From: a virus
Reading direction: 5' to 3' (one strand)
DNA: 24,234 nt
UHGV virus genome: UHGV-0124819
The notes under the pieces are model-generated. The model was given only the letters and a program-made list of their open reading frames with translations. It was not told the origin of the DNA and searched no databases. How positions within the stretch are numbered: the first letter of the stretch is position 1; each line of letters begins with the position of its first letter. Position numbers and translations under genes: made by a program. This document shows positions 2,165 through 11,852 of the stretch, piece after piece.

Positions 2165-2797
2165 TCAAAGGCTCTTAATGATTTTCAGTGCGCGGCCTAC
2201 TACCTCAATGTCATCCAGGCCGCACTCAAACGATGAATCATCCTGATGCACTACTAATTTGTTTCCCGGGAGTCGAGTCAATTTAACAATGCTTTTTATC
2301 CCGTCGATATCGACTAACCACATACCATTTACTAGTGGTGTTTGGTTGCGATCTATTAAATAAGAATCACCAGAAGTAGTCACCAGCAGTAGGTTGCTTG
2401 AGTTTGAGGGGAGTATGCTGCTATCAATGATTGCTTTTCCAGCATCGATCAATAAACCACCGTTGAGAGTCGCCTTGTCAATTTCAGGAGATACTAGTTC
2501 AGAAAGAGGTATAACCTTGCTGGAGTTCACGGAATTGATATTTTTTTTGGGTTCAATGTTTGAACCTGGCTCCCCCTGTCCGGTGGTTAGCCACAGTAAA
2601 GAAACTCCTGTTTCCAAGGCGCACTGAATCACCCACTCTGCAGGAAAACTATCTCTTAAGTATCTGTTTGCCATGGTACTTTTTGATGCGCCTAAGTGAT
2701 CGCAAAGTTGCTGTCTGGACTTGAAATCATAGGCTGCCATTAGTCTATGGATAGCCTCTCTTCCCCCTGTATTCTCTCCAGCCTTTACCTGTATCAT
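2165..2797 (-). CDS. cI: CI-type immunity repressor
   Basis: 210 aa. N-terminal HTH-like segment KSTMANRYLRDSFPAEWVIQCALETGVSLLWLTTG. Sits divergent to the early operon, with its stop 1 nt from the int start, matching the 186 cI-int lysogenic operon layout. Confidence 0.8.
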   Translation of the reverse strand: MIQVKAGENTGGREAIHRLMAAYDFKSRQQLCDHLGASKSTMANRYLRDSFPAEWVIQCALETGVSLLWLTTGQGEPGSNIEPKKNINSVNSSKVIPLSELVSPEIDKATLNGGLLIDAGKAIIDSSILPSNSSNLLLVTTSGDSYLIDRNQTPLVNGMWLVDIDGIKSIVKLTRLPGNKLVVHQDDSSFECGLDDIEVVGRALKIIKSL

Positions 2798-4992: not shown

Positions 4993-5846
4993 GCACCATC
5001 CTGAAATGGGCGGGAAATAAAACCGCCATTATGTCCGAACTGAAAAAGCATCTTCCTGCTGGCCCGCGACTGGTTGAACCTTTCGCGGGTTCCTGTGCAG
5101 TGATGATGGAGACGGAGTACCCCAGCTATCTTGTTGCGGATATTAATCCTGATTTAATCAACCTCTATAAAAAGGTTGCTGCTGATTGTGAATCATTTAT
5201 ATCTCGCGCCAGAGTTTTATTTGAGATCGCAAACAGGGAGGTAGCTTATTACAACATAAGGCAGGAGTTTAATTACTCAACTGAAATTACTGATTTCATG
5301 AAAGCGGTATATTTCCTGTATCTCAATCGTCACGGTTACCGTGGTTTATGTCGCTATAACAAGAGCGGGCATTTCAACATTCCCTACGGTAATTATAAAA
5401 ATCCGTATTTCCCTGAAAAAGAAATTCGCGCATTTGCAGAAAAAGCCCAGCGAGCAACGTTTATCTGCGCCAGCTTTGATGAAACGCTGGCGATGTTGAA
5501 GGCGGGGGATGTGGTGTATTGCGATCCGCCGTATGACGGTACGTTTTCCGGCTATCACACTGATGGTTTCACTGAAGATGACCAGTATCACCTGGCATCC
5601 GTTCTTGAACATCGGTCATCAGAAGGACATCCGGTCATTGTTTCTAACAGTGACACATCCCTGATCCGTTCGCTGTATCGCAATTTTACTCACCACTATA
5701 TCAAGGTAAAACGCAGCATCGGTGTGGCAGCTGGCGAGGGTAAATCAGCAACAGAAATCATTGCTGTTTCCGGGCCGCGCTGCTGGTTGGGATTTGATTA
5801 TTCGCGTGGCGTGGATAGTTCTGCCGTGTACGGAGTGCGTGCATGA
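4989..5846 (+). CDS. dam: DNA N6-adenine methyltransferase (Dam-like)
   Basis: Start ATG at 4989 overlaps the TraR stop (ATGA). Motifs KWAGNK, SAM-binding EPFAGSCAV, and catalytic DPPY (CDPPYDG). Confidence 0.9.
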
Positions 5847-8257
5847 GCCATGCTGATATGAACAACTGCAGCGGCTTTAACGAGGCCGCCGCAGCATTCT
5901 CATGGAACAGCCCGAAAAAGGCTATTAACCCTTATCTGGACCCGGCGGAAGTTGCGCCGGTTTCTGCGCTTTCAAACCTGATCACTCTGTACGCTGCCGA
6001 TAACGAGCAGGAACAACTGCGCCGCGAGGCACTGAGTGATCAGGTCTGGGAGCGTTATTTCTTTAATGAATCCCGTGATCCTGTCCAACGCGAAATGGAG
6101 CAGGATAAGCTCATTAGCCGGGCAAAGCTGGCGCATGAGCAGCAGCGTTTTAATCCGGACATGGTCATACTGGCGGACGTTAAAGCCCAGCCCTCCCATA
6201 TCAGCAAGCCGCTGATGCAACGTATTGAATACTTCAGCAGCCTGGGCAGGCCAAAGGCTTATTCCCGCTATTTGCGTGAGACGATTAAGCCATGTCTGGA
6301 ACGACTGGAGCATGTACGCGACAGTCAGCTATCCACTTCTTTTCGCTTTATGGCAAGCCATGAAGGGCTGGACGGCCTGCTGATCCTGCCTGAAATGAGT
6401 CAGGATCAGGTGAAACGCCTGTCTACTCTTGTCGCTGCGCATATGAGCATGTGTCTTGATGCCGCTTGTGGTGATTTGTACGCCACCGATGATGTTAAGC
6501 CAGAAGAAATCCGCAAGACATGGGAAAAGGTGGCAGCAGAAACCCTGCGACTGGATGTCATACCGCCTGCGTTTGAGCAACTCCGCCGGAAAAGAAACCG
6601 CCGTAAACCCGTACCCTATGAACTCATTCCGGGTTCGCTGGCGCGTATGTTGTGCGCCGACTGGTGGTATCGGAAATTATGGAAGATGCGTTGCGAATGG
6701 CGGGAAGAGCAGTTGCGTGCTGTTTGCCTGGTCAGCAAAAAAGCATCTCCCTATGTCAGCTATGAAGCCGTGATGCATAAACGTGAGCAGCGCCGTAAGT
6801 CGCTGGAGTTTTTCCGTTCTCATGAACTGGTGAACGAAGACGGCGACACGCTGGATATGGAGGACGTGGTAAACGCCAGTAGTAGCAACCCGGCGCATCG
6901 CCGCAATGAGATGATGGCATGTGTTAAAGGTCTGGAGCTTATCGCGGAAATGCGCGGTGACTGCGCCGTTTTCTACACCATCACCTGTCCGTCACGTTTC
7001 CATTCCACGCTAAATAACGGCAGGCCCAACCCAACCTGGACAAATGCGACGGTAAGACAAAGCAGTGATTATCTGGTCGGCATGTTTGCTGCATTTCGTA
7101 AGGCGATGTACAAAGCCGGATTGCGCTGGTATGGCGTGCGGGTGGCTGAGCCGCATCATGACGGTACAGTTCACTGGCACCTGTTGTGTTTTATGCGCAA
7201 AAAAGATCGCCGCGCCATTACTGCTTTGTTGCGTAAGTTTGCCATCCGTGAAGACCGCGAGGAGCTGGGTAATAACACAGGACCACGCTTTAAGTCTGAG
7301 CTGATAAACCCGCGCAAAGGTACGCCAACAAGCTACATCGCGAAATACATCAGTAAGAACATTGACGGGCGTGGTCTGGCTGGCGAGATCAGCAAGGAAA
7401 CGGGTAAATCCCTGCGTGATAACGCTGAATACGTTAATGCCTGGGCGTCTCTTCATCGTGTTCAGCAATTCCGCTTCTTTGGCATTCCGGGGCGTCAGGC
7501 TTACCGTGAACTGCGATTGCTGGCTGGTCAGGCGGCAAGGCAACAGGGGGACAAAAAAGCAGGTGCGGCGGTACTGGATAACCCACGCCTTGATGCCATC
7601 CTGGCTGCTGCTGATGCTGGTTGTTTTGCCACCTACATCATGAAGCAGGGCGGCGTACTGGTTCCCCGCAAATATCACCTCATCAGAACCGCTTATGAAA
7701 TCAACGAAGAGCCGACCGCCTATGGCGATCACGGCATTCGTATTTATGGCATCTGGTCACCCATTGCAGAGGGCAAGATCTGCACTCATGCAGTGAAGTG
7801 GAAAATGGTTCGTAAGGCCGTTGACGTTCAGGAGGCGGCAGCCGACCAGGGCGCTTGCGCCCCTTGGACTCGTGGCAATAACTGTCCCCTTGCTGAAAAT
7901 TTGAACCAACAGGAGAAAGATAAATCAGCTGATGGGGACCCCAGAACGGACATTACCCGCATGGATGACAAGGTGTTGCACGATTACCTGCACAGTATGA
8001 ACAAAAAGGAGCGCCGGGAATTGGCTGCAAGGTTACGTCTGGTGAAACCGAAACGGCGTAGAGACTACAAACAGCGAATTACAGACCATCAACGACAGCA
8101 GCTCGTCTATGAACTGAAATCCAGAGGATTTGATGGCAGCGAGAAAGAGGTCGATTTACTCCTTCGCGGCGGCAGTATTCCGTCAGGAGCAGGCCTGCGT
8201 ATCTTCTATCGGAACCAGCGTTTGCAGGAAGATGATAAGTGGCGGAACCTGTATTAA
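5843..8257 (+). CDS. A: Rolling-circle replication initiation endonuclease (P2 gpA family)
   Basis: 804 aa. HUH-type motif VHWHLLCF and tandem catalytic tyrosines YIAKYISKN. Start overlaps the dam stop (ATGA). Confidence 0.9.
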
Positions 8258-8349
8258 TTACGCTGGTTAACAATTCGTGCTCTTAATAATACCAGGCATA
8301 TCAGGCTGATAAGCGTAAATAAACGTTTTACATCAGTAAGATTATTATA

Positions 8350-8369
8350 TACTGTAAATATAAACAGTG
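8350..8369 (+). promoter_or_regulatory. LexA operator (SOS box) overlapping a candidate promoter for the tum-like/DinI-like genes
   Basis: TACTGTAAATATAAACAGTG has the CTGT-N8-ACAG core (CTGT 8352-8355, ACAG 8364-8367) and is close to the consensus TACTGTATATATATACAGTA. -35-like TTTACA at 8327-8332. Confidence 0.7.
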
Positions 8370-8410
8370 GTTATACATACAGTATTGCGTGTGGTGTCAT
8401 AGGAGGAAAG

Positions 8411-8599
8411 ATGCAGGACTATTTTTTGGAGTCTTTGAAGCTCCAGCGCATTGATTTTTTTCTTAAGCTTGTAGCGGCTAGTGAGTGTAGTGATGAAGAG
8501 AAGGGGCTGGCTCTGCAGTGGGTTTCTGAATTGACTGATGAACTCATGGCAAAAATCAGAAGCCACGAATACAACCGCTCAATGGATGTCATCAACTGA
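8411..8599 (+). CDS. Hypothetical small protein in the position of the 186 tum (SOS-inducible antirepressor) region
   Basis: 62-aa ORF, ATG at 8411 with SD AGGAGG at 8401-8406. Lies directly downstream of the LexA box. Confidence 0.5.
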   Translation: MQDYFLESLKLQRIDFFLKLVAASECSDEEKGLALQWVSELTDELMAKIRSHEYNRSMDVIN

Positions 8600-8609
8600 G
8601 GTGACTTTT

Positions 8610-8843
8610 ATGTGCATTGAAATAATGATCGATAAAGAGCAGAAGATTAGCCAGTCTACCCTGGACGCCCTTGAATCCGAGCTTTACCGCAATCTGCGCC
8701 CCCTGTATCCCAAAACGGTAATCCGTATCCGTAAAGGTAGCTCTAACGGTGTGGAACTGACCGGACTGCAACTGGACGAAGAAAGAAAACAAGTGATGAA
8801 AATTATGCAGAAGGTGTGGGAAGACGACAGCTGGCTGCATTGA
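8610..8843 (+). CDS. DinI-family protein (DNA-damage-inducible protein I-like)
   Basis: 77 aa, MCIEIMIDKEQ...LDALESEL...QKVWEDDSWLH. Aligns by eye over its full length with E. coli DinI (MRIEVTIAK...IDALAGEL...QETWESADDW). SD GAGGTG upstream. Confidence 0.8.
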   Translation: MCIEIMIDKEQKISQSTLDALESELYRNLRPLYPKTVIRIRKGSSNGVELTGLQLDEERKQVMKIMQKVWEDDSWLH

Positions 8844-8897
8844 TTTTGTCAATAGACGCTTGTTTTTACTAATCAAAAAGGGTTACATATGAGTGAG

Positions 8898-8931
8898 AGG
8901 CGATGTCAATCAGATATCGCCTTGTTTTTTG
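8898..8931 (+). terminator. Intrinsic terminator after the DinI-like gene
   Basis: Stem AGGCGAT / ATCGCCT (8898-8904 / 8916-8922) followed by TGTTTTTTG. Confidence 0.55.
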
Positions 8932-8956
8932 TCAAGAAAAGAATAATAGGCTAAAA

Positions 8957-9634
8957 ATGAAAATTAATAACGTAGCGTTACCAATATCTCTTGCTGTAAT
9001 CCTAACTGGTTGCGTGCCACATGCTTCTAACCGAAATATCACTGCTATTGAAGTGGTGAAGCCTGCTATTGGGCAAAGTGCTACCGCCTACATGGGCGAT
9101 CCCATTATCACATCTGCTACTGGATTTAAAACGGACGTACTAGAACTTGGTGCGGCTAATGGTGCATTGTCTTCTATCGCTGCTGGTACATATTGCAGTG
9201 AGGGGAATGGAATTTACCGCAATTATCATAACCCTCAAGCTGTTGCGTTAAAAAATCTCTATGGGCAAATCGGTAACTATGTTGATTATGTTAGTTACGA
9301 TGCTGCAAAAAATGAGATATCACCGCCAAATGGTACTTCTTATACTGCATCAGAAATTTCTATCAAACGTGTTCCTGATGGGCTGTGTCGAGTTAGTAAC
9401 TCATTGGTTAAGACTATCGAATACAATGGAAATGCAGGCGGTGTAATGAAGTTCACCTATCGTGAATTTGCAAACGATATGGCTCGTGCAGCATTTACAA
9501 CAGATTTTTCTGTAGATTCTAAGGGAAGTGACGTTATCGCTTACAAAGGTGCCAAGTTCAAAGTGAACAAGGCTGATAACTCGTCTATTTCTTATACAAT
9601 TATTTCTGGCTTTGACAAGGCTGTCACGTTCTAG
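8957..9634 (+). CDS. Lipoprotein of unknown function (moron)
   Basis: Signal peptide MKINNVALPISLAVILTGC with lipobox LTGC. 225-aa Gly/Ser/Thr/Asn-rich mature part. AT-biased. Bracketed by terminators at 8898-8931 and 9739-9765. Confidence 0.75.
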   Translation: MKINNVALPISLAVILTGCVPHASNRNITAIEVVKPAIGQSATAYMGDPIITSATGFKTDVLELGAANGALSSIAAGTYCSEGNGIYRNYHNPQAVALKNLYGQIGNYVDYVSYDAAKNEISPPNGTSYTASEISIKRVPDGLCRVSNSLVKTIEYNGNAGGVMKFTYREFANDMARAAFTTDFSVDSKGSDVIAYKGAKFKVNKADNSSISYTIISGFDKAVTF

Positions 9635-9826: not shown

Positions 9827-9973
9827 CGCGCGCAAGGTATAGAAACAGTCGTTTGTTTACAAACAGATACTATGATTTTCAATGTTCTTTCAAATTGTTG
9901 CTTTAAGATAGCAGGTAGATGTTTGTAGTTGTTGCGTGAACTGATAAGCTTCTACAACTATCGAGGAAAGGAT

Positions 9974-11041
9974 ATGAAGCGGCTAACTGAAGAACAAATT
10001 GAACATTCTTTGATCAGAGCAAGGAAGATTGCGAAGCGGGAGTCAAGAAAGCTTTCTGGTGGAAGACGGATGCTACAGCCCATGCGGGTATTCTCTCGTG
10101 TGAGAATACCCGCGCCTGCGTCATTGGACTTATTTAATACTAAAAATTACAAACTATTTATAGAGTTTATCACTTTAATAAGAGATTACATCAATGATGG
10201 TGAGAAAATTTTAATAGATTTCAGAAATACAAAATCTCTGAAAGCATGTGCAGTAATCGTATTGTATGCACATATTGACTTTTTACAAAGGCAAACAAAA
10301 GATAAAAATATAATTTCTATTACTACGTGCGGTTCATCCAGGGCAAATAACTGGTTTAAAATATGTGGTATTTGGGGGATTACAGGGTTTCAGCGTATAG
10401 CTGCAGATAAGCTTAATTCAATGGAAATTGTTTCCGCTGTTGCAGGCAAAACTAGAGATGATCATGAAAGTGCCGAAGCAAGACAAAAAATTAAAAATAT
10501 TCTACGTTATATAAAAGATACCATTTATGAAGGTAAGATTTCCGCTTCGGATGGTGTGAAATTATATGCAGCCTTAACTGAATCTATTAGCAATGTTGGT
10601 CTACATGCGTATTCAAATGAAGAACAGTTCTCTGAATTTATTGAGGACATTGGTAAAAGATGGTGGATATTGGCACACAAAGTCGAAGAACAACTATTTT
10701 TGATGGTGTATGATATGGGAGAAGGTATCCCAGTTACATTGGTTAAAAAAGACTTTTTCACATTTATCGCTCAGATATTTAATCCTAAGACGGATTCTGA
10801 TAAAATATTCGCGGCTGTACAGTATGGTGAGACAAGAATGAATAGTCAGAAGCATGGTAAAGGATTACCTGATATGAAAAGGTATGTTGTAGATAACCCT
10901 GAGGGGCAGTTACATATTTTTAGTGGAATGGGACGATATTCTTATGATGCTGAAAATAATGTTGAAGATAAATTTGATCTGCCATACTCCATAGGTGGAA
11001 CCCTTATTCAATGGAATGTAAGTTTGAGAGGTGCTGAATGA
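9974..11041 (+). CDS. Cassette gene 1: protein with a C-terminal GHKL-superfamily ATPase/kinase domain (RsbW/SpoIIAB-like) and an N-terminal domain of unknown function
   Basis: 355 aa from ATG 9974 (SD GAGGAAAGG). N-box-like LTESISNVGLHAY (10580-10612; compare SpoIIAB SEAVTNAIIHGY), G1-box-like YDMGEGIP (10709-10732), G2-like HGKGLPD (10853-10873). AT-rich. Confidence 0.6.
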   Translation: MKRLTEEQIEHSLIRARKIAKRESRKLSGGRRMLQPMRVFSRVRIPAPASLDLFNTKNYKLFIEFITLIRDYINDGEKILIDFRNTKSLKACAVIVLYAHIDFLQRQTKDKNIISITTCGSSRANNWFKICGIWGITGFQRIAADKLNSMEIVSAVAGKTRDDHESAEARQKIKNILRYIKDTIYEGKISASDGVKLYAALTESISNVGLHAYSNEEQFSEFIEDIGKRWWILAHKVEEQLFLMVYDMGEGIPVTLVKKDFFTFIAQIFNPKTDSDKIFAAVQYGETRMNSQKHGKGLPDMKRYVVDNPEGQLHIFSGMGRYSYDAENNVEDKFDLPYSIGGTLIQWNVSLRGAE

Positions 11042-11358
11042 AAATCAAAGAGATACATGTTGCTGAAGATTTTTCAGATGTTCCCTATGGCCGCTATGAT
11101 GAGGATGGTCCTGATAATGGACAACGTTTCCGTGAAAAGTATCTTTTGAAAGCCATCCAAGATTATGATGAGGTGCACGTGTACCTTGATGGTGCTATGG
11201 GTTATGGTTCTTCATTCTTGGAAGAGGCGTTTGGTGGACTTTATAGAACAAATAATATAGATAAAGCTATAATTAGGAAAAAATTAAAAATATTTACTGA
11301 TTTGGATTTCCTCAAGGATAGTATATGGGGATATATTTCTGATGCTAAAAAGGAGTGA
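11038..11358 (+). CDS. Cassette gene 2: small acidic protein, possibly STAS-like (anti-sigma-factor-antagonist-like, DUF4325-type)
   Basis: 106 aa. ATG overlaps the gene 1 stop (ATGA at 11038-11041). Segment VHVYLDGAMGYGSSFLEEAFGG (around 11200-11235) resembles the SpoIIAA/RsbV pattern h-h-D-x-S/G-x-h-x-h-DSSGLG. Confidence 0.5.
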   Translation: MKIKEIHVAEDFSDVPYGRYDEDGPDNGQRFREKYLLKAIQDYDEVHVYLDGAMGYGSSFLEEAFGGLYRTNNIDKAIIRKKLKIFTDLDFLKDSIWGYISDAKKE

Positions 11359-11363
11359 TGTTC

Positions 11364-11852
11364 ATGGATGAACTTCCGGTTTATCTGCGGTTATTACAAT
11401 ACCTTGCTAGTTCAGGTGTGATTGCAATTCTAACAGCCTTGATTGGTTGGGTTTTTGTTTATAGAAACTCCCGTGCGTTGCAAAAGAGGAGTGAAACATG
11501 GTCAATTGTAAAAAATGTTTCAGATAATTTAAAGGAAATTGAATCTGCATCAAGAAAGTTTTGGATACCGGGAGATTCAAAAGAAATTGATGCAATGTCA
11601 TTTCAAAATGAGATAACAGCACTTCTTGCGGAGACCGAGCGGTGGTTGAATCATCTAAAACAACGCATTAATATCGAAGGTGACTATAAACCTTTGATTG
11701 CTGATTTATTCAAAGATGCTACATCTAATATTGAAAAAGCACAGGAGTATGATAAAAGTCAAAGGACAAGAATTAGTGTATTAGTGTCAAAAAGGGCGAA
11801 AATAATTAAATCTCTAATTGATGAGTCTTATCAGAAAAAATTCTTAAAGTGA
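11364..11852 (+). CDS. Cassette gene 3: single-pass membrane protein with a C-terminal coiled-coil-like region
   Basis: Likely ATG at 11364, 9 nt after SD AAGGAG and 5 nt after the gene 2 stop. TM helix VIAILTALIGWVFVY, then a charged heptad-like Lys/Glu-rich region. AT-rich. Confidence 0.6.
   Translation: MDELPVYLRLLQYLASSGVIAILTALIGWVFVYRNSRALQKRSETWSIVKNVSDNLKEIESASRKFWIPGDSKEIDAMSFQNEITALLAETERWLNHLKQRINIEGDYKPLIADLFKDATSNIEKAQEYDKSQRTRISVLVSKRAKIIKSLIDESYQKKFLK

What the first reader, a model, noticed from the sequence alone, without database searches (positions are those of the whole stretch)
8319..8843. SOS-controlled induction module: LexA box upstream of a small ORF plus a separate DinI-like gene
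A near-consensus LexA operator (CTGT-N8-ACAG within TACTGTAAATATAAACAGTG) overlaps a candidate promoter just upstream of a 62-aa ORF, followed 10 nt later by a 77-aa DinI-family ORF. In phage 186 the SOS-inducible antirepressor Tum occupies this position. Here the module appears as two cistrons in different frames, so either the antirepressor is split or interrupted, or the two are naturally separate.
Basis: partly seen in the sequence, partly recalled or inferred. Interest (0 to 1): 0.4.

Follow-up and report, generated by a model that had tools for sequence, protein, structure and literature searches.

The report
SOS-inducible prophage antirepressor operon (tumA–dinI)
This is the DNA-damage switch of a Fels-2-type P2-family prophage: a LexA-repressed promoter drives a 62-aa antirepressor gene and a separate DinI-like gene, an arrangement already described and genetically tested in near-identical prophages, so it is real but ordinary.

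Summary
A LexA box (8350-8369) sits on a promoter just after replication gene A. It is followed by a 62-aa ORF (8411-8599) and, 10 nt later, a 77-aa DinI-family ORF (8610-8843).

The two cistrons are naturally separate, not a broken tum:
- Both show dN/dS of about 0.07 at dS of about 1.
- The layout recurs in Fels-2, SopEPhi, Klebsiella and Yersinia phages, 94 of about 105 evaluable IMG/VR contigs, and about 1,070 E. coli genomes.
- PSP3 annotates the same pair as tumA and tumB.

ORF1 is a remote homologue of the N-terminal antirepressor half of 186 Tum (hhalign 96.7%, E 4e-10). ORF2 equals the C-terminal half and starts exactly where 186's internal "truncated Tum" start lies.

In E. coli HS prophage DuoHS (98.9% identical here), deleting the 62-aa gene alone, or making LexA non-cleavable, abolished mitomycin C induction. 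Fels-2's operon is induced by a mutagen.

A second, overlapping box (8365-8384) makes it 34/39 identical (Fels-2: 36/39) to the double SOS operator of colicin genes.

Verdict: already known, low interest.

The parts
8327..8332 (+). -35 hexamer TTTACA of the SOS promoter (equivalent of 186 p95)
   Evidence: It lies 17 nt upstream of TACTGT. Hexamer and spacing are invariant in Fels-2, E. coli HS, SopEPhi, Yersinia MLG42 and Klebsiella phi4.1 while the neighbouring bases diverge. 186 p95 is annotated as TTCACA, 18 nt, TACTGT. The consensus scan did not call it. Function is inferred.
8350..8355 (+). -10 hexamer TACTGT, inside the left half of LexA box 1
   Evidence: Assigned by analogy with the annotated p95 -10 of 186, which is the first six bases of its LexA site. 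Inferred.
8350..8369 (.). LexA (SOS) box 1, TACTGTAAATATAAACAGTG
   Evidence: It has 3 mismatches to the consensus and is unique in the window; 0 of 100 shuffles give such a site. A LexA box is present upstream of every tumA/tum homologue examined.
8365..8384 (.). LexA box 2, CAGTGGTTATACATACAGTA, overlapping box 1. The 16-mers 8352-8367 and 8367-8382 share one base. This is the colicin-type 'proximal' box.
   Evidence: The 39 bases 8348-8386 are 34/39 identical (Fels-2: 36/39) to the double SOS operator about 40 nt upstream of colicin-like genes on Col plasmids. Box 2 is conserved across the Fels-2 clade. Boxes 1 and 2 are the two best LexA-like sites in the window by a rough, uncalibrated heterology index. 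LexA binding was not tested.
8401..8406 (+). Shine-Dalgarno AGGAGG of tumA
   Evidence: Read from the sequence. Conserved as AGGAGG in relatives.
8411..8599 (+). tumA-type antirepressor gene (62 aa)
   Evidence: Matches phrog_698 at 9.7e-38. The N-terminal 70 aa of 186 Tum hit the same PHROG at 6.7e-6. hhalign against the 186-Tum-N/PSP3-TumA family gives probability 96.7%, E 4.4e-10, residues 1-42 to 1-42. dN/dS is 0.07. It is 61/62 identical to ECHS_RS04495, the gene deleted as 'tum' in DuoHS. AlphaFold predicts a two-helix hairpin, pLDDT 92.8.
8598..8604 (+). Shine-Dalgarno GAGGTGA of the dinI-like cistron, overlapping the tumA stop codon
   Evidence: Read from the sequence. It lies inside a weak hairpin, 8588-8605. 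Translational coupling is an inference.
8610..8843 (+). tumB / DinI-family gene (77 aa)
   Evidence: PF06183 at 6.8e-23. 42% identical to 186 Tum residues 73-145, E 1e-23. Its first codon aligns with residue 71 of 186 Tum, the GTG start of the annotated 'truncated Tum'. Full-length match to E. coli DinI, PDB 1GHH, E 2e-5. dN/dS is 0.07.
8897..8933 (+). Intrinsic terminator-like hairpin (11-bp stem, 8897-8923) followed by a T run
   Evidence: z = -3.5. It occupies the position of the partial terminator t95a of 186, between tum and orf97. Partial read-through is inferred.
8957..9634 (+). Probable third cistron: lipoprotein (225 aa, signal MKINNVALPISLAVILTGC), in the slot of 186 orf97 but unrelated to it in sequence
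   Evidence: phrog_1353 at 3e-105. RefSeq calls the 678-nt version in E. coli HS. The Fels-2 operon STM2726-STM2727-STM2728 is co-induced by the mutagen MX (PMC2225428).
2165..2797 (-). 186-type CI immunity repressor, the presumed target of TumA
   Evidence: PF07022 and PF16452 match, with no S24 self-cleavage domain among the Pfam matches at E<=0.01. 33% identical over the full length to 186 CI, E 7e-37. The TumA-CI interaction is inferred from 186.

Best explanation
This is the SOS operon of a Fels-2-type (Felsduovirus, P2/186 family) prophage.

In the lysogen, LexA sits on a double, overlapping operator (8350-8384). That operator covers the -10 element and the transcription start region of a promoter just downstream of replication gene A.

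After DNA damage, RecA-stimulated LexA self-cleavage frees the promoter. One transcript is then made that carries two closely coupled cistrons.

1. tumA (62 aa, a two-helix hairpin) is the antirepressor. By homology with the N-terminal half of 186 Tum, it binds the 186-type CI repressor encoded at 2165-2797. That repressor has no self-cleavage domain. Binding stops CI from holding its operators, so the lytic promoter fires and the prophage is induced.
2. tumB (77 aa) is a DinI homologue. By analogy with DinI and with 186's 'truncated Tum', it acts on RecA filaments and modulates the strength or duration of the SOS signal. It is an accessory, not the inducer.

Some transcripts probably read through a hairpin terminator into a lipoprotein gene (8957-9634).

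What is shown here: the sequence elements, the homologies, the selection on both ORFs and the conservation.

What is shown in the literature for near-identical orthologues: dependence on LexA cleavage and on the 62-aa gene, and damage-inducible transcription.

What is inferred: LexA occupancy of each box, the TumA-CI contact, the role of TumB, and read-through into the lipoprotein gene.
For: Operator and promoter:
- The LexA 20-mer is unique in the window and 0 of 100 shuffles give one.
- A LexA box precedes every tum/tumA homologue examined, across at least nine genera of Peduoviridae, while the flanks diverge.
- The promoter layout equals the annotated p95 of 186.
- The second box and the whole 39-nt operator match colicin double SOS operators. 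The literature says these bind two LexA dimers (PMC2994835).

Proteins:
- ORF1 is homologous to the N-terminus of 186 Tum: PHROG cross-hits and hhalign at 96.7%, E 4.4e-10.
- ORF2 is a DinI-family protein.
- Both ORFs have dN/dS of about 0.07 at dS of about 1.
- CI is of the 186 type, with no peptidase domain among its Pfam matches.

The two-gene layout is the norm:
- Fels-2, RE2010, SopEPhi and Klebsiella, Yersinia and E. coli phages.
- 94 of about 105 evaluable IMG/VR contigs.
- 1,069 E. coli genomes cover at least 80% of the module.
- PSP3 annotates tumA ('UV induction of prophage') and tumB.

Literature:
- Fels-2 and PSP3 have tum split in two, and in PSP3 the upstream gene is the antirepressor (PMC3121763).
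- In E. coli HS DuoHS (98.9% DNA identity here; TumA 61/62), deleting ECHS_RS04495, which is the 62-aa gene, or using lexA(Ind-), abolishes mitomycin C-induced lysis and virion foci (PMC12055606).
- STM2726-STM2727-STM2728 is induced by a mutagen, with STM2727 up 5.5- to 14.8-fold (PMC2225428).
Against: - Nothing was measured on this sequence itself.
- ORF1's similarity to 186 Tum is remote. Pairwise BLASTP finds nothing, and the hhalign match has 21% identity over 42 residues.
- The TumA-CI contact has been shown biochemically only for 186 Tum.
- The DuoHS deletion fuses the start and stop codons of tumA. It could therefore lower expression of the coupled dinI cistron, so a contribution of TumB to that phenotype is not formally excluded.
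- The -10 hexamer is poor, and the consensus scan called no promoter.
- Box 2 has a non-consensus left half (GTGG).
- My heterology-index matrix was rebuilt from memory and did not reproduce published values.
Confidence: 0.9

Rival explanations
1. The two ORFs are the remains of a single 186-like tum gene inactivated by a frameshift or stop codon, so the prophage is non-inducible.
For: 186 and its close relatives encode one fused 146-aa Tum. Here the two ORFs are in different frames.
Against: - Both ORFs have their own Shine-Dalgarno sequence and start codon.
- dN/dS is about 0.07 at saturating dS.
- The 62-aa ORF followed by the 77-aa ORF is conserved in more than 100 viral contigs and about 1,070 E. 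coli genomes.
- Infectious phages carry it (Fels-2, RE2010, SopEPhi).
- The DuoHS prophage, which has the same layout, is inducible.
- ORF2 starts at the position of 186's own internal start for a free DinI-like product.
Confidence: 0.02
2. The DinI-like protein is the actual inducer, for example by stabilising RecA* or acting on CI, and the 62-aa protein is an accessory or a leader peptide.
For: - In 186 the DinI-like half is part of Tum.
- The DuoHS tumA deletion might be polar on the coupled downstream cistron (inference).
Against: - Phages ESSI-2, ESSI2_ev015, ENT90 and YenM_324 keep the LexA box and a tumA-type gene but have no dinI gene.
- In PSP3 the upstream gene carries the antirepressor activity (PMC3121763).
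- 186 annotates the free DinI-like product only as a modulator of SOS induction.
- ORF1 is conserved as a protein.
Confidence: 0.05
3. The 62-aa protein triggers induction by a route other than binding CI, for example by acting on Apl/Cox, CII or LexA itself.
For: - Only residues 1-42 align with 186 Tum, at 21% identity.
- There is no solved structure or informative fold match.
- No binding data exist for the Fels-2 type.
Against: - The alignment with the 186 antirepressor domain is colinear.
- The genomic position is the same and a 186-type CI is present.
- TumA and CI have diverged to similar extents from their 186 counterparts, as expected for a cognate pair (inference).
Confidence: 0.08

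Closest known systems
Fels-2 STM2728 / STM2726.1 (DinI) / STM2726, and the E. coli HS prophage DuoHS 'tum' (ECHS_RS04495) with ECHS_RS04500
   Same: This is the same locus. DNA identity is 97.0% (Fels-2) and 98.9% (HS). TumA is 61/62 identical in both. The double operator, gene order, spacing and terminator are the same. DuoHS needs this gene and cleavable LexA for induction.
   Different: There are only point differences: TumA S51T in Fels-2 and N62S in HS; DinI residue 2 is Cys here and Arg in both; box 2 spacer is ACA here and ATG in Fels-2. The cargo downstream of the operon differs.
PSP3 tumA / tumB
   Same: A LexA box, then a small antirepressor gene, then a separate DinI-like gene, all after gene A. 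The record annotates the genes as the two halves of 186 tum. The window's ORF2 and PSP3 TumB align colinearly over all 77 residues with no gaps.
   Different: - PSP3 TumA belongs to another PHROG (phrog_1993). It is only remotely related to the window's TumA, which hits that family at E 0.002.
- PSP3 has a single LexA box 20 nt from the start codon.
- Its two genes are in the same frame, 3 nt apart.
Coliphage 186 SOS operon (p95, tum, t95a, orf97)
   Same: The position after gene A, a LexA site overlapping the -10, the antirepressor and DinI-like modules, a terminator and then a further gene, and a 186-type CI as target.
   Different: - 186 fuses both modules into one 146-aa protein and makes the free DinI-like product from an internal GTG.
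- It has a single LexA box.
- Its orf97 is unrelated to the lipoprotein here.
Double overlapping SOS boxes of colicin/cloacin operons on Col plasmids
   Same: Two LexA 16-mers share one base. The second box has the same non-consensus GTGG left half. Identity over the operator is 34/39 for the window and 36/39 for Fels-2.
   Different: - These operators drive bacteriocin genes, not an antirepressor.
- The colicin promoter hexamers lie upstream of box 1, whereas here the -10 is inside box 1.
- Similarity does not clearly extend beyond about 40 nt.
Gifsy/Fels-1 LexA-controlled antirepressor operons (GfoA, GftA, FsoA)
   Same: The logic is the same: a LexA-repressed operon encodes a small antirepressor plus a dinI homologue, and the repressor does not self-cleave (PMC3121763).
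   Different: The gene order is reversed, with dinI first. The antirepressors and repressors belong to other families. These are lambdoid phages.

Membership tests
186/PSP3/Fels-2-type SOS (tum) operon of P2-family phages | A LexA operator overlapping the promoter of the operon | tested here: met
   The 20-mer has 3 mismatches to the consensus and is unique; 0 of 100 shuffles give one. It overlaps TTTACA-17-TACTGT, the same layout as the annotated p95 of 186.
186/PSP3/Fels-2-type SOS (tum) operon of P2-family phages | Location directly downstream of replication gene A, on the same strand | tested here: met
   gpA is at 5843-8257 (PF05840, 4e-127). The layout is the same in 186, PSP3 and Fels-2.
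186/PSP3/Fels-2-type SOS (tum) operon of P2-family phages | A protein homologous to the N-terminal (antirepressor) part of Tum | tested here: met
   PHROG cross-hits. hhalign gives 96.7%, E 4.4e-10, residues 1-42 to 1-42. Pairwise BLASTP was negative.
186/PSP3/Fels-2-type SOS (tum) operon of P2-family phages | Antirepressor and DinI-like parts fused in one polypeptide, as in 186 Tum itself | tested here: not met
   There are two cistrons in different frames, 10 nt apart. So this is the PSP3/Fels-2 split variant, not the fused 186 form.
186/PSP3/Fels-2-type SOS (tum) operon of P2-family phages | A cognate 186-type CI repressor without a self-cleavage domain | tested here: met
   PF07022 and PF16452 match, with no S24 peptidase among the Pfam matches at E<=0.01. 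33% identity to 186 CI.
186/PSP3/Fels-2-type SOS (tum) operon of P2-family phages | Transcription and prophage induction depend on LexA cleavage and on the antirepressor gene | not testable with these tools
   Shown in the literature for orthologues: DuoHS delta-tum and lexA(Ind-) (PMC12055606), and Fels-2 operon induction by the mutagen MX (PMC2225428).
186/PSP3/Fels-2-type SOS (tum) operon of P2-family phages | The antirepressor binds CI and blocks its DNA binding | not testable with these tools
   Cited for 186 Tum (Shearwin et al. 1998) in PMC3121763. Not known for the Fels-2-type protein.
DinI family (PF06183) | Full-length match to the family profile above the curated cut-off | tested here: met
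   81.2 bits against a cut-off of 24.2, covering profile positions 1-63 of 63. Aligns with E. coli DinI (1GHH) residues 1-77.
DinI family (PF06183) | An acidic C-terminal helix (W-E-x-x-D-W region), implicated in RecA binding (my own knowledge of DinI) | tested here: met
   QKVWEDDSW aligns with QETWESADDW of E. coli DinI. RecA binding itself cannot be tested here.
Colicin-type double overlapping SOS operator | Two LexA 16-mers sharing one base, the second with a GTGG left half and a consensus ACAG right half | tested here: met
   The 16-mers are 8352-8367 and 8367-8382. The operator is 34/39 identical to operators upstream of colicin-like genes.
Colicin-type double overlapping SOS operator | Occupancy by two LexA dimers, giving tighter or delayed derepression | not testable with these tools
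   Stated for colicin operators in PMC2994835. Untested for this promoter.

The most novel reading that the evidence does not exclude
The Fels-2 clade, unlike 186, PSP3, ESSI-2, ENT90 and the Yersinia enterocolitica phages (each with one LexA box 18-23 nt from the start codon), controls its antirepressor with a colicin-type double overlapping SOS operator. That operator is nearly identical in sequence to those on Col plasmids.

If both boxes bind LexA cooperatively, as in colicin promoters, these very common E. coli, Salmonella and Klebsiella prophages would be induced only late, or at high damage doses, and in a small subpopulation. The shared 39-nt operator would then be a regulatory cassette exchanged between Col plasmids and P2-family phages.

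I found no mention of this in the searchable literature. I could not read Bunny et al. 2002, which may describe it.
Probability: 0.5. Interest if true: 0.35.

Novelty: already known. Interest (0 to 1): 0.15.

Why it matters
The module decides when a very common family of enterobacterial prophages switches to lytic growth after DNA damage, including damage from antibiotics. It is present in about 23% of complete E. coli genomes, and in Fels-2, SopEPhi and Klebsiella phages. That switch affects phage-mediated gene transfer and host lysis.

The mechanism is already established for orthologues, so this window adds no new biology.

The one point that may merit a small follow-up is the colicin-type double LexA operator. 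It predicts a higher induction threshold than in 186.

Tried and rejected
- Pairwise BLASTP of ORF1 against 186 Tum found no alignment. Homology appeared only with profiles.
- The MAFFT alignment of all five proteins partly misplaced the C-terminal tails of the short TumA proteins onto the DinI half. I did not use it for those tails.
- The sigma-70 consensus scan called no promoter at the LexA box. The promoter assignment rests on the 186 annotation and on conservation.
- Pfam and NCBIfam have no family for ORF1. PADLOC had no hit for any gene tested.
- A profile search of PDB sequences for the ORF1 family gave nothing.
- Foldseek of the confident two-helix model against PDB and BFVD gave only generic helical hairpins, none below E 0.3.
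- A heterology index from a LexA-site list recalled from memory did not reproduce published values (recA 5.45 against 4.31; umuDC 0.5 against 2.77). I use it only to rank sites within the window.
- Bunny et al. 2002 and Christie & Calendar 2016 are not held in the library.
- Searching papers for the operator string, or for 'tumA/tumB', gave nothing useful. A search for a double SOS box together with an antirepressor found no relevant paper.
- Rfam had no hit in the window.
- The in-frame upstream ATG at 8538, which would give a 101-aa DinI, was rejected. The extension is not conserved in SopEPhi, Yersinia MLG42 or Klebsiella phi4.1, and the Shine-Dalgarno sequence precedes 8610.
- The long start (8903) of the downstream ORF was rejected in favour of 8957. 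The long form begins inside the terminator hairpin, while the short form starts with a lipoprotein signal and is the RefSeq call in E. coli HS.
Full report
**What is in the sequence.**
The window is a P2/186-family prophage. It carries an integrase, a 186-type CI, a Cox/Apl-like excisionase, CII and replication gene A, followed on the other strand by the portal gene.

- Gene A (5843-8257, PF05840 E 4e-127) is followed by a 153-nt spacer, a 62-aa ORF (8411-8599), a 10-nt gap, and a 77-aa ORF (8610-8843) in another frame.
- The 77-aa ORF is a DinI-family protein: PF06183 E 6.8e-23, and a full-length match to E. coli DinI, PDB 1GHH, E 2e-5.
- CTGT-N8-ACAG occurs once in the window, at 8352-8367. 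As a bare motif this is not significant, since 30 of 100 shuffles have one.
- The full 20-mer TACTGTAAATATAAACAGTG is within 3 mismatches of the LexA consensus. It is unique in the window, and no shuffle gave one.

**Where the window belongs.**
- The 700 bases around the finding are 97-98% identical to Fels-2, RE2010 and a large set of Klebsiella and E. coli P2-like phages.
- They are 98.9-99.7% identical to prophages in E. coli chromosomes. 1,233 of 5,426 complete genomes have a match, and 1,069 of them cover most of it.
- In all annotated records the two ORFs are called separately, as 'hypothetical protein' and 'DinI family protein'.

**Is it a broken tum?**
- Phage 186 has, at the same position, promoter p95 with a LexA site over its -10, a single 146-aa tum gene, the partial terminator t95a and then orf97.
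- PSP3 has two genes there. tumA is annotated 'similar to 5' end 186 tum; UV induction of prophage'. tumB is annotated 'similar to dinI and 3' end of 186 tum'.
- The window's ORF2 is 42% identical to 186 Tum residues 73-145, E 1e-23.
- Its first codon aligns with residue 71 of 186 Tum. That residue is the internal GTG from which 186 itself makes a free 'truncated Tum' that 'modulates SOS induction'.
- ORF1 has no pairwise BLAST similarity to 186 Tum.
- Profile evidence does link them. The N-terminal 70 residues of 186 Tum hit ORF1's PHROG (phrog_698, E 6.7e-6). Both proteins hit phrog_8554. ORF1 hits PSP3 TumA's family (phrog_1993, E 0.002).
- I built one alignment of ORF1 relatives: window, SopEPhi, Yersinia MLG42, Klebsiella phi4.1, ESSI2_ev015 and Cronobacter ESSI-2. 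I built a second of 186-type N-termini: 186, ENT90, YenM_324, YenM_201.16 and PSP3 TumA.
- hhalign matches the two alignments colinearly, residues 1-42 to 1-42, with probability 96.7% and E 4.4e-10.
- Against SopEPhi, Yersinia MLG42 and Klebsiella phi4.1, both ORFs have dN/dS of 0.07-0.08 at dS of 0.85-1.4. Each is a protein-coding gene maintained in its own frame.
- A scan of IMG/VR for the operator found at least 120 contigs. Every downstream ORF that could be read is this same protein, which is 62 aa in all but a few contigs with shorter versions. 94 of about 105 evaluable contigs have the DinI ORF immediately after it. None is fused.
- Conversely, ESSI-2, ESSI2_ev015, ENT90 and YenM_324 have a LexA box and a tumA-type gene with no dinI gene.

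The antirepressor and the DinI-like gene are therefore separable modules. Fusion, as in 186, is the exception. The 'inactivating frameshift' reading is rejected.

**Regulation.**
- A LexA box precedes every homologue examined, while the flanking sequence diverges.
- In the Fels-2 clade, TTTACA lies exactly 17 nt upstream of the TACTGT that opens the box. This repeats the annotated p95 layout of 186: TTCACA, 18 nt, TACTGT as the -10.
- The generic consensus scan missed it because this -10 matches only 3 of 6 positions.
A second 20-mer, CAGTGGTTATACATACAGTA (8365-8384), overlaps the first. The 16-mer cores share one base, G8367.
- This block is conserved in Fels-2, SopEPhi, Yersinia MLG42 and Klebsiella phi4.1.
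- It is absent from 186, PSP3, ESSI-2, ENT90 and the Y. enterocolitica phages. These have one box 18-23 nt from the start codon, against 41-48 nt here.
- A search of plasmids with the operator returned 1,206 mostly small mobilisable plasmids.
- In the two I opened, the match lies about 40 nt upstream of a colicin-like tRNase bacteriocin gene and a colicin-like pore-former gene.
- Identity to the window over 39 nt is 34/39 and 33/39. For Fels-2 it is 36/39 and 33/39.
- With a rough heterology index, the two boxes are the two best LexA-like sites in the whole window (about 5.0 and 6.8, with the next at 11.4). The matrix was rebuilt from memory and did not reproduce published values, so only the ranking is used.

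**Function, from orthologues.**
- Lemire et al. [quoted passage not shown] They cite Bunny et al. 2002 and a personal communication from G. E. Christie cited there (PMC3121763).
- In E. coli HS, the P2-like prophage DuoHS is induced by mitomycin C. Both lexA(Ind-) and an in-frame deletion of 'tum' abolish lysis and virion formation (PMC12055606).
- The supplement gives the deleted locus as ECHS_RS04495. In RefSeq this is the 189-nt 'hypothetical protein' directly upstream of the DinI-like gene. It is 61/62 identical to the window's ORF1.
- In Salmonella TA100 (Fels-2+), the operon STM2726-STM2727-STM2728 responds to the mutagen MX. STM2727 rises 5.5- to 14.8-fold and is listed in the LexA-regulon table alongside genes such as umuD, sulA, dinI and recN (PMC2225428).
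- STM2728 is the 62-aa gene and STM2726 is the downstream 243-aa ORF in the Fels-2 record. That STM2727 is the dinI-like gene is my inference from the numbering.

**The target and the rest of the operon.**
- The window's CI (2165-2797, minus strand) has the two Pfam domains of 186 CI (PF07022, PF16452) and no S24 peptidase among its Pfam matches. It is 33% identical to 186 CI over its full length. This fits induction by an antirepressor rather than by RecA-stimulated self-cleavage.
- AlphaFold, run on the single sequence, predicts a confident two-helix hairpin for ORF1 (H2-23, H28-61, pLDDT 92.8). The invariant Cys26 lies in the turn.
- Fold searches were uninformative, and no PDB relative exists by sequence.
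- After the dinI-like gene there is an 11-bp hairpin with a T run (8897-8933), at the position of 186's partial terminator t95a.
- It is followed by a lipoprotein gene (8957-9634; phrog_1353; signal MKINNVALPISLAVILTGC) in the slot of 186 orf97 but unrelated to it.
- The Shine-Dalgarno sequence of the dinI-like cistron overlaps the tumA stop codon and lies in a weak hairpin. This suggests translational coupling, which is an inference.

**Mechanism I commit to (confidence about 0.9).**
LexA holds the promoter shut through the double operator. DNA damage removes LexA. TumA is made and neutralises the non-cleavable 186-type CI, which triggers lytic development. The co-translated DinI homologue tunes RecA filament activity. 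Part of the transcript reads on into the lipoprotein gene.

- Shown here: the elements, the homologies, the selection and the conservation.
- Shown elsewhere for orthologues: dependence on LexA and on tumA, and damage-inducible transcription.
- Inferred: occupancy of each box, the TumA-CI contact, the role of TumB, and read-through.

**Novelty and score.**
The module is a near-identical copy of loci already described (Fels-2, PSP3, DuoHS) and already tested genetically. It is therefore 'already known', and its interest is low (0.15).

The only element I could not find in the searchable literature is the resemblance of the Fels-2-clade operator to the colicin double SOS operator. I could not read Bunny et al. 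2002, which may cover it. If the second box is functional, it predicts a higher or later induction threshold than in 186. I give that 0.5 probability and modest interest.

Noticed in passing
window 8365-8384 (with 8350-8369): A second LexA-like box overlaps the first. The 39-nt operator is 34/39 identical (Fels-2: 36/39) to the double SOS operator upstream of colicin-like genes on about 1,200 Col-type plasmids. It is conserved in the Fels-2 clade but absent from 186, PSP3, ESSI-2 and ENT90.
   Followed up: yes
window 9929-11852 (+): A three-gene cargo lies between the SOS operon and portal gene Q: 370 aa (phrog_3364, weak HATPase_c), 106 aa (DUF4325, STAS-like, PF14213) and 165 aa. It has no PADLOC or NCBIfam hit. 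It is complete in only 20 of 5,426 E. coli genomes, whereas its flanks occur in about 1,280. It is variable hot-spot cargo and a possible uncharacterised defence or partner-switching module.
   Followed up: partly
window 8957-9634 (+): A lipoprotein gene (lipobox LTGC, phrog_1353, no Pfam family) occupies the slot of 186 orf97, which blocks 186 infection when expressed from a plasmid. The two are unrelated in sequence. The mechanical ORF from 8903 is, by coincidence, also 243 aa, like 186 orf97. It may be a superinfection-exclusion or surface-modifying function co-induced with the SOS operon.
   Followed up: partly
window 8588-8605 (+): A weak hairpin (6 pairs, z = -2.2 for 8575-8625) encloses the tumA stop codon and the Shine-Dalgarno sequence of the dinI-like cistron. 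This could make dinI translation depend on ribosomes terminating at tumA.
   Followed up: no
window 8610-8615: The DinI-like protein starts MC(IEIM) here, whereas Fels-2, E. coli HS and the most common IMG/VR variants start MR(IEIM). This is a single Arg2-to-Cys change of unknown consequence.
   Followed up: no
L009 (Escherichia phage 500465-1) 701-1231: In this record the tumA ORF has a locally scrambled stretch (…EERGWLCSGVSELT…), and the dinI ORF lacks one A after its start codon. These look like frameshift errors or a decaying copy. It is the only clearly damaged version among the ten relatives compared directly, and a few IMG/VR contigs also carry shortened versions.
   Followed up: no
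L013 (Erwinia phage ENT90) 459-698: ENT90 encodes a protein 61% identical to the N-terminal half of 186 Tum. It stops before the DinI part and is not followed by a dinI gene. It is a natural 'antirepressor-only' version of the 186-type protein.
   Followed up: partly
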